DNA of 64,000 nt, taken from positions 67,518,001-67,582,000 of the forward strand of contig JAGIQG010000005.1 in NCBI GenBank assembly GCA_024679065.1, read 5' to 3'. Shown here one piece after another: positions 12,001 through 57,000 of this stretch. A program made the position numbers. This DNA is from Sphyrna mokarran. Lineage: Eukaryota. Within the stretch, counting starts at the first letter, position 1. Each line of letters opens with the position of its first letter.

Positions 12001-15000
12001 GTACAATGTGTTGGCTTTTATTGGTAGAGGGATTGAATTTTGGAGCTGAGATGTCATGTTGCAACCGTACAAAACTCTGGTGCACCCACACTTGGAGTAT
12101 TGTGTACAGTTTTGGTTGCCACATTATAAGAAAGATGTAGAGGCATTGGAAAGGGTGCAGAGGTGGTTTACCAGGATGTTGCCTGGTATGGTGGGTAGGT
12201 CTTATGAGGAAAGGCTATGGGACTTGAAGTTATTTTCATTAGAGAGAAGAAGGCTAAGAGGTGACCTAATTGAGGCATATAAGATGATCAGACGGTTAGA
12301 TAGGGTGGATAGTGAGAGCCCTTTTCCTCGGATGGAGATGGCTAACACGAGGAGACATAGCTTTAAATTAAAGGGTGGTAGTTATAGGATGGATGTCAGA
12401 GCGTACTAAGGGCATGGAATACCCTGCCTGCAGCAGTTGTGGACTCGCCAAGTTTAAGGGCGTTCAGATGGTCAGTGGATAGGCATATGAATAACATTGG
12501 AATAGATTAGGTTAGAGGGTGATAAGATTGGTTGGCGCAACATCAAGGGCCTGTACTGCGCTGTAATGTTCTATGTTCTATATTTATTGACAGTGCTACA
12601 GTGGATGTCATGATGACTCATGGCTTACAGTGGTTCTGTTGGAAATGTTCTATGCAGGAAGCATTTAAATAAAGTGTTATACATATGCAGGCATAAAATG
12701 TAGCCATATTGAAAAATCTGAGCTTAATTAACGTTTTGAGTTTCATGAAAATCTACTTAAATGAAAAATATTGTTTGAAAGGAAATTTTCACATTCAATT
12801 ATTGATATTTAAACAAAAGAGGTACATTGAAAGCTGAAAACATGGTGTGAACAGTGGACAATTTTTATCCTCTATTAATGCACAGAAGCAGAATTAGAAG
12901 CAAGCATTTGAAATTTTGCTCAGCTGAAATTCAATATTAACATTTTCTAAAAACTTGGACTTAAATCTTGGAATCCTATTGTTGCAACAAATCTTGGTGA
13001 AAAGGTTAGTAATTTACATGATAAATTCTGTGTGGCTATTTTTGTTAACAAGTTATTCATGTTCGTGATGATGATATGGAAATGCTGGCGTTGGACTAGG
13101 TGGACAAAGTAATAAGTGTCACACACCAGATTAATGTCCAAAGGTTTATTTAGAATCAAAAGCTTTCGGGGCACTGCTCCTTCATCAGGTAAGTCTGCGA
13201 AGTCACAGCTCTCCAAAAGCTCATGATTCCAACTAAACTTGTTGGACTTTAAACCTGGTGTTCTGAGACTTCTTATGTATTTGTGGTGTTCAGGGCCATT
13301 GGAAAAGATGAGATTTCACAGGAGTTAACAGTCTTAGATTCTGTTCAACTTTTTGTCCAGATAATAATTTAGTGCAAGCAAGATTTTAGCAAAATTTGGA
13401 ATAAATTGTAATGTTTTTCACTGAGATTACTTGTGTTTTCATAGGCCAATGTATTATTAAACTTCAGTATTACAAGATACTGTTTCCAACAAAGGAGACA
13501 GAACGCTTCACCAATCTATTTTATAAATTGTTTTCACTGGGTCTTCAGAGTAATACTACACAACACATGCACAATAGTGTGCAACTGCACAATGCAATTA
13601 GATGTACTTACATTATATTGGCTTGAAACAGACCACATTCTCAACCATGTGCAAATTTCAATTTAGATTCATGATAAGGACCATGAAACAGTACAATCAT
13701 TTCATTTACACTTTAATTGACAATTTAATAAAATTGGTAATTTTTAAAATATCACTGACCCAAAAAGAGGAATTAAGCCTCTGTTTTAAAAACATACAGC
13801 TATTAATTTCACCTAAAATATATGCATTAAATAAAGTTCTAAGGAGACCAAATAACCATAAAAGATATATAACAATGACTAATTTACATGCATGAGTTCA
13901 CCTCTTCATTCTCTTCATTGTGTGTGCCTTTAGGCATTGTTCCTTAACAGTATAATTCAAGCTCAAAACAATTTGCAACTTTAGCTCGTTGAATTTTAAT
14001 AAACTGATGCTTGAAATGACAATGAAGCCGCTGGTAAGGCGGTTATTATGGCTGCCTCCACATAACATATATTTGTAAGCTAATGCAGAATATAGACCAA
14101 ATTGATTTAATTCAGCAAGATGGATGTGTACTTTACACTGTGGTTTTTTTTTCATAACATACAATAATGCAAAAGATAAATGTTGCTCCTACACAAGAGA
14201 TTACAGGAGTCCAACTGAAAATCACAAGTCAATTTTTATGAAGAGAATCAAATGGGTTTGCTCAGTTATCTGCTGCATGTACTGCTTGTTTTAGTAGCAT
14301 GTTTGTATATTAAATGAATTGGTATTAAAATTAAAAAAAAAATCTAGCTTTTTCAGTGAGATACTTACATCCCTGTACAGCCATATCTACAGCCCAAATC
14401 AAAGCCAGATGTGAAAGAAAGCACAACAGTATCAGTGAGTGCCAGCAAATTGAATATACAAGGAGCAAATTTTAAGAGTTGCAATCTTTAGACACAACAC
14501 AGGAAAGAAAATCAAATGCAGTATTATAGTGCTGGGAAATGTAACTTACATCAATATAATTTGCATTAATGTAATCTGACGTTGAGTCATCCTCTAATGG
14601 CTGTAAAATTACTCTGGAATGATCATCTACAGGAAACAATGCACACGTTAAATTTATTTTCTTTTCAGGAAGTGATATACAGCACTTAAGCATTATCAAA
14701 TGTGCTAAAACTGATCTGAGTTACTCCGTAATTCACCTTTAGTTTTAAAATATTATTTTCTAACTTTCAACTGACAGAAAATTATGCAAATGGAACTAAG
14801 ACAGAGAAATGCAAGCCACATTCCAGCATTGGATGCGGGAAACAGACAAGAACCCTCCGGGCAATGTGAAGAGAGAGATGTTTTTTATAATCCATAGACC
14901 CATTGAAACCCATAAGTGGCTGAGGAAGTGATATTAAAAATAGATATTGAAACAGTACCGTTTGGAAATACATAATGAGTGAAGTATTTCAAAGTGAGGC

Positions 15001-54000: not shown

Positions 54001-57000
54001 AGTTACTGGTACATGTACCCATCCCTCCCCTCTCTCTATTCCCCAACCCCAAACTCATGGCTCGAGCACACCCTCCACCTTCCACTGAACTTAGAGGTTC
54101 AAGTTGATGCCACAGTGTCCCTTAAATGTTTCACTGGGTACTGGTTACCCTGGTACAACACCAGGATGGAAATGTGATCCTTGGAAGGAGCTCAATGATA
54201 CCTGGGCTCCAAGGATTAAAGTTAAAAGTTTTTTTTTGTTAATCACAGGTAGGCTTACATTAACACTGTAATGAAGTTACTGTGAAAATCTCATAGTTAC
54301 CACACTCTAATGTCTGTTTGGGTACACTGAGGGAGAATTAGCACGGCCAATTCACGTAATCAGCACATTGTTCAGACTGCGCAAGGAAACCGGAACATCC
54401 AGAGGAAACATGTACAGTCAGTGACCCAAGCCAGGAATTGAACTTGGGTCCCTCGCACTGTGAGGCAGCTATGTTAACCATAGTATGCTGTTCCAAACTT
54501 TACTTCGTACTCGGCTTGAGCTATAGTTTGCTTCTTATCCTCCAATTCATGCTTGCAACCCTTCTACTCCACTTTTAATAAAGAGAGATTACGGAAACTA
54601 AACTTGTATTCCAAGTTTCCTCCTTTTTTGTCACGAGTAGCCTATTCAGTTAAGCATGCAAGCCCTTTAAACTTCTTTGGTGGGGCAACTGGAAGGGGCC
54701 AAATTGTGCTGAGAGAACTTCTGCAGGAACACTGGTTCTGTCCCTTAGAATTTAGAAGATTAAGAGGTGATTTGCTTCAAGTTTTCATGATATTAATGTG
54801 AACTCATAAAACAGGCAGAACAAAACTATTTCAGATCTTTGGTGATTCTAGGACTAGTGGACATACGGTAGCACAGTTGTTGGCACTGCTGCCTCACAGC
54901 GCCAAGGACCCAGATTTTATTTCTAACTTGGAGTGCTGTCTGTGCCGAATCTGCACATTCTCCCTGTGTCTGTGTAGATTTCCTCCGTGTGCTCTGATTT
55001 TTTCCCCACAGTCCAAACGATGTGCTGGTAACATGCACTGGCTATTCTCCATTCGTGGTAGCCCATCAGACATTGGAGTGTGGTGATCAATTTCATTGTA
55101 GTGCTAATGTAAACGTACTTGTGATACTAATAGAATAAACTTAAATTTGTCAAAATCTTAGAACCAGATCTTTCAGGAGCAAAATTAGGAAATACCTCTT
55201 CATGCAAAAAGATGGCAGCAGTTTGGAGCTTTATTCCAACTTTATTGGAACTTTATTGATGCTAGATCAATTGGTAATTTTAAATCTGAGATTGATATAT
55301 TTTTGTTTAGCAAAGATATGAAGGCGTATGGTACAAAGGCATACAGAGGTTCAGGTATATAGAATTTGGTGTAGGGCAGCCCTGATCTCACTGAAAAGTA
55401 GAGCAGGCCTAAGAGGCAAATTGACCTACTCCTGTCCTTATGTTCCTAAATGGCATTTTGATCATTCACACATTTAACTTGCCTGATCCAAGGAAATCTG
55501 ACAAGGTAGATCTCTCAGATATGATTTACAATAGTTCAGAGATTGCAGAGCAGGGCTGCAGATTTTCAGCCCCAATGTATTCAAAACTTGCAATGCCCAC
55601 TGTCCACTGTTCCAAACTTTACTTCACACTCAGCTCAAGCTACAGTTTATTTCTCACCCTACAATTCATATTTGCAATCCTTCTGCTCTACTCTTAGTCA
55701 GCAAACATGACAATAACAATATAAAATTTATACACTGATTTTAAAAATCCAACTATTAGAAAAAGTAATGCCATCTCTCACTCCATCCAGTCTCTGCAAA
55801 ACATTGGGACAGGATTTCTCTGGACTGGTAATCACTGTCAGATTGCAAATCACCTCCTTTTCACTTATAGTCCAGAGCTGCACATTTCTCACATGAGCTG
55901 GTGAAAAGTGTGTAGGATGGCAACTCTGCATCCCTGCCAGTGCAGGGCCTCAGCGTTCAGGAGAAATGAAGTCACACCCCTGTCACTCTCCCATAAAGCA
56001 GATCCTAGCCACTTCAACAAGTCAGGGAGAAGGTGACTGTGTAAAGCTAACATCAGCAGAGTTCGTGGTTGGGCAACGAGCCATCAGTGGTTAGCAATGG
56101 GGATCAGATGGTTGGGGTTGGGTGTGGTTGAAGGTGGCCGGAGTGTGGATGGTAGTTGGGAGGGGAATCAGGAGGGGAGATGGGATCCAATATGAGGGAG
56201 AGAAAAAAAGTGAGGGTGCAGTCAGGTGTGCTGTGATATCAAGTCAGGAAGCTACCCAAGCTTTTAAACAAATTAATCATTTGCTGTTTTCACAATATAG
56301 TCAAACTATAGTTGGTTGGGATGTAAGCCCATACTTCTGAGGGATATAAACATTTTGGAGCTGGCACCACAAAAAGATTTATCAAATCTATCTCATTAAT
56401 AACTTAGAACTTAAGAACAGACCAAGACTATATCCTCTGAGATAAAACATGTAAGCTATAAGTATTGTACTTAGTTTCCTTTTGATGGAGTTTTCCTACA
56501 CCAGGTAGTCAGAACATTTTTTAAAAAGCATGCCTTTCTACAGAACACAATTATCCTTCAATTATTTTTATACTATTTCAGGAATAGTTATTGGTTAAGG
56601 AACCAGTCAACTAATAGTTGCATTTAGTTGAAATATACAAGCAGTATTATATTAGAGCAACTCCTTACCTTTTCTTAACAATCATTACCACAACCAGGAG
56701 CAGGAGGATGAAAACCAGAATTCCAGCACTGATTCCAGCTATTTTCACCACCCGATCAGTTTGCTTGACTGGGTCAGGGACCACCTCAGGTTCTTCCGTT
56801 GTGGCTGCTAAATTAGTCAGAAAAAGTATTTGCATGAAAGCATGTAATTATTGCTGACAGGGAAATGATTTTTAATGTCACTTTCATACAGTACACTTCA
56901 AAAATTCAAGTACAATTCATAAAACATTTCTTCCCATTTGTGTGACAATTATATTTCACGTTACATTTTCTGCTACCCTAATAATTTAGTGAGCAGAAAA

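What the first reader, a model, noticed from the sequence alone, without database searches (positions are those of the whole stretch)
14369..56810. Combinatorial microexon system in PTPRK: four small cassettes plus a NAGNAG
Seen: 30-, 36-, 12- and 18-nt exons, each a multiple of 3 with the right phase for its intron and a consensus donor, plus a 3-nt tandem acceptor. Five binary choices allow up to 32 in-frame isoforms, tuning the membrane-proximal region and D1. None appears in the ORF track, so automated annotation could miss them. Known: R2B phosphatases have alternative juxtamembrane and D1 exons, and neural microexons depend on SRRM3/4 and RBFOX. Inference: the program is ancestral to jawed vertebrates. 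This is the best-supported biology in the window, although the individual exons are probably known in mammals.
Basis: partly seen in the sequence, partly recalled or inferred. Interest (0 to 1): 0.65.

Follow-up and report, generated by a model that had tools for sequence, protein, structure and literature searches.

The report
Conserved PTPRK microexons in a shark
The window holds part of a shark PTPRK phosphatase gene in which four tiny optional exons and a 3-base alternative splice site are real, but they are the same ones already annotated from sharks to mammals, so the finding is correct and ordinary.

Summary
Observation confirmed. On the minus strand lies PTPRK (best match great white shark PTPRK). 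Between the transmembrane exon and the first phosphatase domain (D1) I located every claimed element. They are a TAG|CAG tandem acceptor (56810-56805) and cassettes of 30 nt (46909-46880), 36 nt (30991-30956), 12 nt (26678-26667) and 18 nt (14386-14369). All have AG/GT borders, the right phase and GTAAGT/GTGAG donors.

Splice-like shape alone is not beyond chance: 1016 in-phase AG..GT candidates against about 877 in shuffles. Peptide identity decides it. RRSYYSYSYYL, LPNDPLVPTAVL, VPIA and IWLYRD match inserts that are present or absent in predicted PTPRK isoforms of shark, skate, chimaera, bichir, gar, bowfin, amphibians, reptiles, birds and mammals.

An origin before the jawed-vertebrate radiation is therefore supported. 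"Annotation would miss them" is not supported. "32 independent isoforms" is untested: the 12-nt exon occurs only together with the 36-nt exon (8 of 8).

UGCAUG clusters lie beside three cassettes (P=0.005), and UGC motifs precede two. This fits RBFOX/SRRM4 control but does not prove it. No RNA data were available.

Verdict: already known biology. The function of the inserts is still unknown.

The parts
56805..56810 (-). Tandem (NAGNAG) acceptor TAG|CAG of the transmembrane exon. Proximal use gives K-A-A-T-T-E-E and distal use gives K-A-T-T-E-E, a difference of one Ala.
   Evidence: Sequence. Orthologue models differ by one Ala at this junction: 59 long, 17 short, 31 unresolved of 107. Same-species pairs exist in bowfin X1/X2 and gar X7/X10.
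56669..56807 (-). Transmembrane exon of 139 nt (136 nt with the distal acceptor). It ends in phase 2 (..AAAAG|gtaagg).
   Evidence: 45 of 45 residues identical to Carcharodon carcharias PTPRK X2. Borders.
46880..46909 (-). 30-nt cassette (me30), phase 2-2. It adds RSYYSYSYYL directly after the stop-transfer KKR. Donor CCT|gtaagt. UGC at -10 and -6. AG-free zone of 80 nt. Three UGCAUG upstream (-285, -159, -139).
   Evidence: The peptide is identical in 29 of 107 orthologue proteins, from shark to mammal.
39767..39927 (-). Constitutive juxtamembrane exon (KLAKKRKD...NFSPR), 161 nt, ending in phase 1.
   Evidence: tblastn; borders.
30956..30991 (-). 36-nt cassette (me36), phase 1-1. It adds LPNDPLVPTAVL. 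Donor TAG|gtgagg. Two UGCAUG downstream (+31, +50).
   Evidence: Present in 33, absent in 66 and unresolved in 8 of 107 orthologue proteins.
26667..26678 (-). 12-nt cassette (me12), phase 1-1. It adds VPIA after me36, or LPIA if me36 is skipped. Acceptor is a long U-tract, then UGCUGCUG, then acaaag. Donor CAG|gtgagt. UGCAUG at +81.
   Evidence: Identical to the skate X5 insert VPIA; amniotes have VPIT. 16 of 5000 random introns give such a match.
25555..25739 (-). Constitutive exon (D/Y)ENHTVSAE...GFKEEYE, 185 nt. It carries the end of the juxtamembrane region and the N-terminal helices of D1.
   Evidence: 63 of 63 residues identical to P0002; borders.
14550..14626 (-). Constitutive D1 exon YDHSRVILQPLEDDSTSDYINANYID, 77 nt, ending in phase 0.
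   Evidence: Pfam Y_phosphatase, E=1.8e-4, 21.7 bits against a cut-off of 20.9.
14369..14386 (-). 18-nt cassette (me18), phase 0-0. It adds IWLYRD between NANYID and GYHRP in D1. It lies 163 nt downstream of the previous exon. AG-free zone of 99 nt. Donor GAT|gtaagt.
   Evidence: The peptide is invariant in 28 orthologue proteins (61 lack it, 17 are unresolved, 1 is aberrant; of 107). Solved R2B D1 structures lack it.
9826..9862 (-). Next constitutive D1 exon, GYHRPSHYIATQ(G), 37 nt.

Best explanation
The window carries the transmembrane-to-D1 part of a shark PTPRK gene, a type R2B receptor tyrosine phosphatase, on the minus strand. The four small exons are genuine, frame-preserving cassette exons. 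The TAG|CAG is a genuine tandem acceptor. All are orthologous to the optional inserts annotated in PTPRK of other jawed vertebrates.

Inclusion would have these effects:
- me30 adds a Tyr/Ser-rich decapeptide right after the membrane.
- me36 and me12 add a Pro-rich 12-residue and a 4-residue piece to the juxtamembrane linker.
- me18 adds six residues (IWLYRD) between two conserved D1 motifs.
- The tandem acceptor adds or removes one Ala just outside the membrane.

Shown: position, borders, phase, peptide identity, and the existence of both plus and minus forms in other species' models.

Inferred: that this shark also uses them alternatively, and that inclusion is driven mainly in neurons. The motif arrangement suggests RBFOX (UGCAUG downstream of me36 and me12, upstream of me30) and SRRM3/4 (UGC between a distant pyrimidine tract and the AG at me30 and me12, with long AG-free zones).

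Also inferred: that the inserts tune trafficking or processing of the membrane-proximal segment and the surface of D1, rather than its catalytic centre.
For: Gene identity. The TM exon is 100% identical over 100% of its length to Carcharodon carcharias PTPRK X2. 437 of 480 candidates had E<=0.001, and the named hits among the 120 listed are nearly all called PTPRK. tblastn of three chondrichthyan PTPRK proteins gives a collinear exon map on the minus strand.

Cassettes. Each peptide occurs once in the window. Within Chondrichthyes each cassette has both forms:
- Shark X2 has me30 and me36 and lacks me12 and me18.
- Skate X5 lacks me30 and has me36, me12 and me18.
- Chimaera X4 has me30 and me18 and lacks me36 and me12.

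Survey. I examined 107 named non-human proteins out of the 120 listed. Thirteen were dropped first: 12 unnamed ones and P0069.
- me30: 28 with, 74 without, 5 unresolved.
- me36: 33 with, 66 without, 8 unresolved.
- me12: 8 with, 91 without, 8 unresolved.
- me18: 28 with, 61 without, 17 unresolved, 1 aberrant.
- Tandem acceptor: 59 long, 17 short, 31 unresolved.
Bowfin X1-X7 show seven of the eight combinations of NAGNAG x me30 x me36.

Chance. For me12, 16 of 5000 random introns give a match.

Regulation motifs.
- Six UGCAUG lie within 300 nt of the four cassettes, against a random-placement mean of 1.23 (P=0.005, 20000 sets). One lies near the 8 constitutive exons.
- AG-free zones are 80, 58 and 99 nt for me30, me12 and me18, against 25-46 nt for 6 constitutive exons.
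- UGC lies at -10/-6 for me30 and at -20/-17 for me12.

Literature, passages seen.
- PTPRK has a neural microexon conserved between human and chicken. It rises in chick brain between stages HH15 and HH27, and its function is listed as unknown (PMC12871342).
- A PTPRK microexon is included in neuroendocrine prostate cancer and is near 0% in normal tissues (PMC10214192).
- Responses of microexons to SRRM4 are conserved from shark to mammals, and the usual enhancer is a Py tract followed by UGC before the AG (bioRxiv 10.1101/2024.09.17.613571).
Against: No transcript data for this species were available, so alternative use here is inferred from other species' computed models. Those models may themselves be partly homology-driven.

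The motif evidence is weak as a discriminator:
- UGC within 30 nt of the acceptor also occurs at 4 of 6 constitutive exons.
- me18 has no UGCAUG within 300 nt.
- me36 has a short AG-free zone of 16 nt.
- UGCAUG pairs also occur far from any exon, for example at 53949/53928.

me30 and me36 are longer than the 27-nt limit often used for 'microexon' (limit recalled, not from a call).

The papers seen do not say which PTPRK microexon they studied.

The structure prediction meant to place IWLYRD failed (mean pLDDT 30.9). The structural role of me18 therefore rests on my recalled knowledge of the PTP fold.
Confidence: 0.85

Rival explanations
1. The exons are real and alternative but not combinatorial. 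They are used in a few coordinated packages (for example a neuronal 'all-in' form and a non-neuronal 'all-out' form), so far fewer than 32 proteins are made.
For: me12 appears only together with me36 (8 of 8 me12-containing models). The all-out form is the commonest fully resolved combination (25 of 69). Three models carry all four cassettes. Three of the four cassettes share nearby UGCAUG, which would favour co-regulation.
Against: 17 of 32 combinations are present among the 69 fully resolved models. Bowfin alone shows seven of the eight NAGNAG x me30 x me36 combinations. However, annotation pipelines can create combinations from partial evidence. Clustering at 90% identity also hides many isoforms.
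Confidence: 0.5
2. In this shark the cassettes are conserved but are constitutive, or are silent relics, so there is no alternative-splicing programme in this species.
For: No RNA evidence for this species could be examined. The listing of cluster members, which might have shown this species' own isoforms, was unavailable.
Against: Codons and splice sites are intact. Related cartilaginous fish have models both with and without each cassette. Invariant peptides over the whole jawed-vertebrate range argue for continued selection on the included forms.
Confidence: 0.07
3. The small exons are chance AG...GT look-alikes in long introns.
For: Bare splice-like, in-phase candidates are as frequent as in shuffled introns: 1016 observed against about 877. 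A NAGNAG occurs at 2 of 14 acceptors.
Against: The peptides match orthologue inserts exactly, lie in the right intron and order, and occur once each in the window. Even the 4-residue case arises in only 16 of 5000 random introns.
Confidence: 0.01

Closest known systems
Annotated alternative exons of PTPRK in other vertebrates (NCBI predicted isoforms). Alternative PTPRK exons '16, 17a and 20a' are reported for mouse (Besco et al. 2004, seen only as cited in PMC12067748).
   Same: Same gene, same introns, same phases. Insert peptides are identical or near-identical: RRSYYSYSYYL, LPNDPLVPTAVL, VPIA/VPIT and IWLYRD. The same one-Ala tandem-acceptor difference is present.
   Different: Only species-level details differ. 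The window has VPIA, as in skate, where amniotes have VPIT. It lacks a detectable counterpart of the tetrapod 42-nt cassette RYITWRRNVCIRNI. It also lacks the reptile RCVEK insert. I could not read Besco 2004, so I cannot say which cassette carries which published exon number.
LAR-type (R2A) receptor phosphatase mini-exons meA-meD (PTPRD, PTPRS, PTPRF)
   Same: A receptor tyrosine phosphatase with several very short, frame-preserving, neuron-regulated cassettes used in combination. meD lies just before D1 and, like the PTPRK inserts, has no known function (PMC12598525, passages).
   Different: A different subfamily and non-homologous positions. The well-understood meA and meB lie in extracellular Ig domains and set ligand choice. 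All four PTPRK cassettes are cytoplasmic (juxtamembrane and D1).
SRRM3/4- and RBFOX-dependent neural microexon programme of vertebrates
   Same: Short symmetric exons, strong donors, a distant pyrimidine tract with UGC before the AG (me30, me12), long AG-free zones (me30, me12, me18) and deep conservation. The literature reports conservation of SRRM4 responses from shark to mammals and lists a PTPRK neural microexon.
   Different: Dependence on these factors was not tested here. me30 and me36 exceed 27 nt. me18 has no nearby UGCAUG and no UGC between its pyrimidine tract and the AG.

Membership tests
PTPRK (R2B receptor tyrosine phosphatase) orthologue | Collinear exons coding the PTPRK transmembrane, juxtamembrane and D1 sequence, including the HC(X5)R catalytic motif | tested here: met
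   The TM exon is 45 of 45 identical to shark PTPRK X2. The collinear tblastn map is 94-100% identical per exon. [11 protein letters not shown] is split over the exons at about 2147-1990 and 872-735. Pfam Y_phosphatase hits one D1 exon.
PTPRK (R2B receptor tyrosine phosphatase) orthologue | Extracellular MAM, Ig and four FN3 domains, and a D2 domain | not testable with these tools
   These exons lie outside the window. There is no tblastn hit for residues before about 713 or after about 1143 of P0002.
Alternative cassette (micro)exon | AG/GT borders, length a multiple of 3, phase symmetric, no stop at any junction | tested here: met
   30, 36, 12 and 18 nt, and 12 of 12 junction codons are sense.
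Alternative cassette (micro)exon | Both inclusion and skipping forms exist | tested here: inconclusive
   Met in other species' predicted proteins, within Chondrichthyes too.
SRRM3/4-dependent neural microexon | UGC between a distant branchpoint/pyrimidine tract and the AG; strong 5' splice site; length of 27 nt or less | tested here: inconclusive
   me12 meets all three. me30 has the motif (UGC at -10/-6, AG-free zone 80 nt) but is 30 nt long. me18 has a long AG-free zone (99 nt) but its only UGC is at -37, upstream of the tract. me36 has an AG-free zone of 16 nt. UGC is also common at constitutive acceptors.
SRRM3/4-dependent neural microexon | Neural-specific inclusion that responds to SRRM3/4 | not testable with these tools
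   No expression data. The literature only says that a PTPRK microexon is neural in human and chicken.
RBFOX-regulated exon | (U)GCAUG within about 300 nt of the exon | tested here: met
   Met for 3 of 4 cassettes: me30 at -285, -159 and -139; me36 at +31 and +50; me12 at +81; me18 none. Enrichment P=0.005 against random placement. Binding and effect were not tested.
NAGNAG tandem acceptor | Two adjacent HAG acceptors 3 nt apart, with both products observed | tested here: inconclusive
   The TAG|CAG motif is present. One-Ala variants occur at this junction in orthologue models: 59 long, 17 short and 31 unresolved of 107, with same-species pairs. Use in this species was not testable. The three cartilaginous-fish references all show the long form.

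The most novel reading that the evidence does not exclude
The 30-nt exon may be a switch for trafficking or processing. Its inclusion places five tyrosines within 12 residues of the membrane. Together with the next exon it creates the sequence Y-L-K-L, a YxxPhi-type sorting signal that is absent from the skipped form (KKS-KLAKK). The peptide RRSYYSYSYY plus LKLAKKRK is invariant in 29 of 29 me30-containing proteins, from shark to mammal.

If neurons include it, they could change endocytosis, phosphorylation or gamma-secretase release of the PTPRK intracellular domain. In the same transcripts, me18 would remodel a surface hairpin of D1.

The YxxPhi reading and the hairpin placement are my inference from recalled knowledge, not from any call.
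Probability: 0.12. Interest if true: 0.5.

Novelty: already known. Interest (0 to 1): 0.22.

Why it matters
The finding is a clean example of how deeply the small-exon programme of a neuronal adhesion phosphatase is conserved. Four cassette peptides and a one-residue tandem acceptor are essentially unchanged between sharks and mammals.

That conservation implies function. Yet the R2B juxtamembrane domain is called "uncharacterized" (PMC6440744). The PTPRK microexon's function is listed as "unknown" (PMC12871342). The insert peptides themselves appear in no PTPRK paper of the held full-text library; the single hit is an unrelated myeloma paper.

For genome annotation, the practical lesson is small. 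ORF-based scans cannot see these exons, but RNA-aware pipelines already do.

The open question is what the inserts do, not whether they exist.

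Tried and rejected
- Cluster members. I tried to list the members of the shark, skate and chimaera protein clusters, to see this species' own isoforms. 

- Besco et al. 2004 and 2001 and Craig & Brady-Kalnay 2015 are not held. One search failed on term syntax. Published exon numbering and any paralogue (PTPRM/T/U) cassettes therefore rest on one citing sentence and on my recall.

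- Structure. I ran AlphaFold2 on a 701-aa bird PTPRK fragment that carries IWLYRD, with a 22-row alignment. Mean pLDDT was 30.9 and pTM 0.23, which is unusable. I drew no conclusion from it and ran no fold search.

- Solved structures. No R2B D1 entry contains the insert. 2c7s aligns with a 6-residue gap there.

- Extra cassettes. I looked in the window for the tetrapod 42-nt cassette and the reptile RCVEK insert and found neither.

- NOVA-type YCAY clusters: counts near the cassettes (1-4 per 200 nt) lie within the background of 3.5 +/- 2.0. Rejected.

- tRNA-like SINE heads: none found by ARAGORN.

I replaced it with a Markov simulation.

- Paralogues and jawless vertebrates could not be reached. 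Exon-level searches list only the best 120 hits, which are PTPRK. The representative library has no names, so I did not use it.

No vertebrate genomic comparison of intron conservation was possible.

- Supplementary tables of the microexon papers are closed. They may say which PTPRK microexon was studied.

Full report
**What the window is**

The 64-kb window has no N and about 36-40% G+C. Stop-to-stop ORFs on the minus strand contain classical tyrosine-phosphatase fragments such as [18 protein letters not shown] and KCYKYWPDD.

I searched exon by exon.

The translated transmembrane exon alone gave 437 proteins with E<=0.001 among 480 candidates. The best full match was receptor-type tyrosine-protein phosphatase kappa isoform X2 of Carcharodon carcharias, at 100% identity over 100% of the query. 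Almost all other named hits were PTPRK of other vertebrates.

tblastn of three cartilaginous-fish PTPRK proteins against the window gave a collinear minus-strand exon map from the transmembrane exon to the "RINMVQTE" exon of D1. A handful of amino-acid differences from the great white shark protein show that the window comes from a related shark, not from that record. I do not take the window for human.

**Checking the observation**

- The finding's end coordinate is the first base of a TAG|CAG tandem acceptor (56810-56805) at the transmembrane exon (56807/56804-56669).
- Its start coordinate is the last base of an 18-nt exon (14386-14369; IWLYRD; ...ctgtag|...|gtaagt). This exon lies 163 nt downstream of the D1 exon that ends ...NANYID.
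- Between them lie a 30-nt exon (46909-46880), a 36-nt exon (30991-30956) and a 12-nt exon (26678-26667).
- The 30-nt exon reads (R)RSYYSYSYY(L), with donor CCT|gtaagt.
- The 36-nt exon reads (L)PNDPLVPTAVL, with donor TAG|gtgagg.
- The 12-nt exon reads (V)PIA, with donor CAG|gtgagt.

Phases are 2-2, 1-1, 1-1 and 0-0. They match the neighbouring constitutive exons. All 12 possible junction codons are sense codons. I computed only the junction codons, not joined sequences.

The exon upstream of the transmembrane exon is not in the window. The first base of the codon spanning the tandem acceptor is therefore inferred from orthologues (K-A-A-T-T against K-A-T-T).

**Is it more than chance?**

By shape alone, no. 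AG|3n|GT candidates of 9-51 nt that stay open in the right phase number 549, 372 and 95 in the three host introns. Dinucleotide shuffles give 481, 309 and 87.

A stricter filter (GTRAGT donor, at least 12 of 20 pyrimidines) leaves five candidates:
- three of the claimed exons;
- a 27-nt variant of the 30-nt exon, made by a second tandem acceptor CAG|GAG;
- one decoy at 53039-53031.

The 36-nt exon fails this filter. A NAGNAG occurs at 2 of 14 acceptors in the window, which is about the chance rate.

Peptide identity makes the elements real. Each insert peptide occurs exactly once in the minus-strand frames, in the right intron and in the right order. Even for the 4-residue exon, only 16 of 5000 Markov-random introns contain an AG|12 nt|GT coding xPI[A/T] in phase.

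**Comparison with other species**

Of the 120 listed proteins, I dropped 13 before any count. Twelve were unnamed entries and one (P0069) was a Boreoeutheria entry that might include human. I examined the remaining 107.

| Element | Present | Absent | Unresolved |
|---|---|---|---|
| me30 | 28 | 74 | 5 |
| me36 | 33 | 66 | 8 |
| me12 | 8 | 91 | 8 |
| me18 | 28 | 61 | 17 (plus 1 aberrant) |
| Tandem acceptor | 59 long | 17 short | 31 |

A plain search for the me30 peptide finds it in 29 of the 107 proteins.

The peptides are RRSYYSYSYYL, LPNDPLVPTAVL (rare single substitutions), VPIA in skate and in the window against VPIT in amniotes, and IWLYRD (invariant).

They occur in shark, skate, chimaera, bichir and reedfish, gar, bowfin, salamanders, frogs (me18), turtles, birds and mammals. 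In this sample me12 is seen only in skate, turtles and mammals. Teleosts were hardly sampled.

Within cartilaginous fish, each cassette has both an included and a skipped model.

Seventeen of the 32 possible combinations occur among the 69 fully resolved proteins. Bowfin isoforms X1-X7 show seven of the eight combinations of the tandem acceptor, me30 and me36. me12 never occurs without me36 (8 of 8).

These are computed gene models, clustered at 90% identity. They show that the elements are annotated and conserved, not how often they are used.

**Regulation (inferred)**

Acceptor features:
- me30, me12 and me18 have long AG-free zones upstream of the acceptor (80, 58 and 99 nt). Six constitutive exons have 25-46 nt, and me36 has 16 nt.
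- me30 (uucuuucuuc...ugcuugccag) and me12 (a long U-run, then ugcugcug, then uuuucgacaaag) have UGC between the pyrimidine tract and the AG. This is the arrangement described for SRRM3/4-responsive microexons (bioRxiv 10.1101/2024.09.17.613571, passages).
- UGC near the acceptor is also common at the constitutive exons, so it does not discriminate.

UGCAUG:
- It occurs three times upstream of me30, twice just downstream of me36 (+31, +50) and once downstream of me12 (+81).
- It does not occur near me18.
- It occurs once near eight constitutive exons.
- The total is six sites against 1.23 expected (P=0.005 by random placement).

YCAY counts are at background.

**What the inserts may do (inferred)**

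me30 sits three residues after the membrane-spanning segment. It adds five tyrosines and, with the next exon, creates Y-L-K-L. The context is invariant in 29 of 29 proteins.

me36 and me12 add a proline-rich piece to a juxtamembrane domain that the literature calls uncharacterized (PMC6440744, passage).

me18 lies between the DYINANYID and GYxRPxxYIATQGP motifs of D1. Solved D1 structures of PTPRK, PTPRM, PTPRT and PTPRU all lack it. My attempt to model it failed (mean pLDDT 30.9). From recalled knowledge of the PTP fold, I expect a lengthened surface hairpin away from the catalytic loop. This is not tested.

**Comparison with what is known**

[quoted passage not shown] 2004 (PMC12067748, passage). 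The primary paper is not held.
- A preprint lists a PTPRK neural microexon conserved between human and chicken, with unknown function, rising in chick brain between HH15 and HH27 (PMC12871342, passages and Table 1).
- A PTPRK microexon is included in neuroendocrine prostate cancer (PMC10214192, passage).
- A PTPRK exon changes inclusion in inhibitory neurons in frontotemporal dementia (PMC12558363, passage).
- None of these passages says which cassette is meant. The supplements that might say so are closed.
- The closest analogous system is the meA-meD mini-exon set of LAR-type phosphatases (PMC12598525, passages). It works alike but is not homologous.
- A full-text search for the four insert peptides found no PTPRK paper. 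The one hit is an unrelated myeloma paper.

**Verdict**

The elements are already annotated in many vertebrates, including sharks, so this is known biology in a new species.

Still open:
- use and tissue pattern in this shark;
- independence of the five choices;
- presence in paralogues and jawless vertebrates;
- the function of the inserts.

Noticed in passing
window 46906-46911 (minus strand): The acceptor of the 30-nt exon is itself a tandem CAG|GAG. It would give a 27-nt form lacking one Arg. That form is not seen in 29 of 29 orthologue proteins carrying the exon. GAG acceptors are rarely used (recalled).
   Followed up: partly
window 46910-56668 (intron between the TM exon and the 30-nt exon): Turtle, blackbird and axolotl PTPRK models carry a further 14-residue cassette (RYITWRRNVCIRNI, 42 nt) just before the 30-nt exon. 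No counterpart was found in the shark intron by motif search or by short-query tblastn. It may be a tetrapod addition.
   Followed up: yes
window 873-1989 (intron inside the HC|SAGAGR catalytic motif); proteins P0024, P0052, P0055, P0059, P0062, P0094: Six reptile models (five turtle, one garter snake) insert RCVEK (15 nt) between VHC and SAGAGRTG, inside the catalytic P-loop. That should abolish activity. No counterpart is present in the shark intron.
   Followed up: partly
window 30944-30955 (just downstream of the 36-nt exon): Read through the donor, the shark intron codes G-E-D-stop. Penguin and blackbird models read TAVL-GEDP-N here, which looks like a 12-nt downstream donor that takes the place of the 12-nt exon. 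In the shark such a donor would hit a stop.
   Followed up: partly
window 26667-26678: The 12-nt exon ends ...ccattgCAG|GTGAGT, an acceptor-like sequence abutting a perfect donor. The 36-nt and 12-nt exons both start TGCC and both end AG|GTGAG. Whether this reflects duplication or a stepwise splicing mechanism was not examined.
   Followed up: no
window 11615-12409 (+), with weaker copies near 2-297, 1172-1608, 8687-8905, 24596-24733, 33132-33387, 34131-34851, 59413-59667 and 62673-63241: The introns hold decayed LINE ORF2 fragments. One hits Pfam RVT_1 (E=3.3e-9). About nine degenerate copies lie on both strands.
   Followed up: partly
window 56848-64000: The exon upstream of the transmembrane exon (the end of the last fibronectin domain) is not in the window, so that intron is longer than 7 kb.
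   Followed up: no
window 53928-53954 and 27200-27224 (minus strand): UGCAUG also occurs in close pairs far from any recognised exon. The pair at 27219/27200 lies about 530 nt upstream of the 12-nt exon.
   Followed up: no
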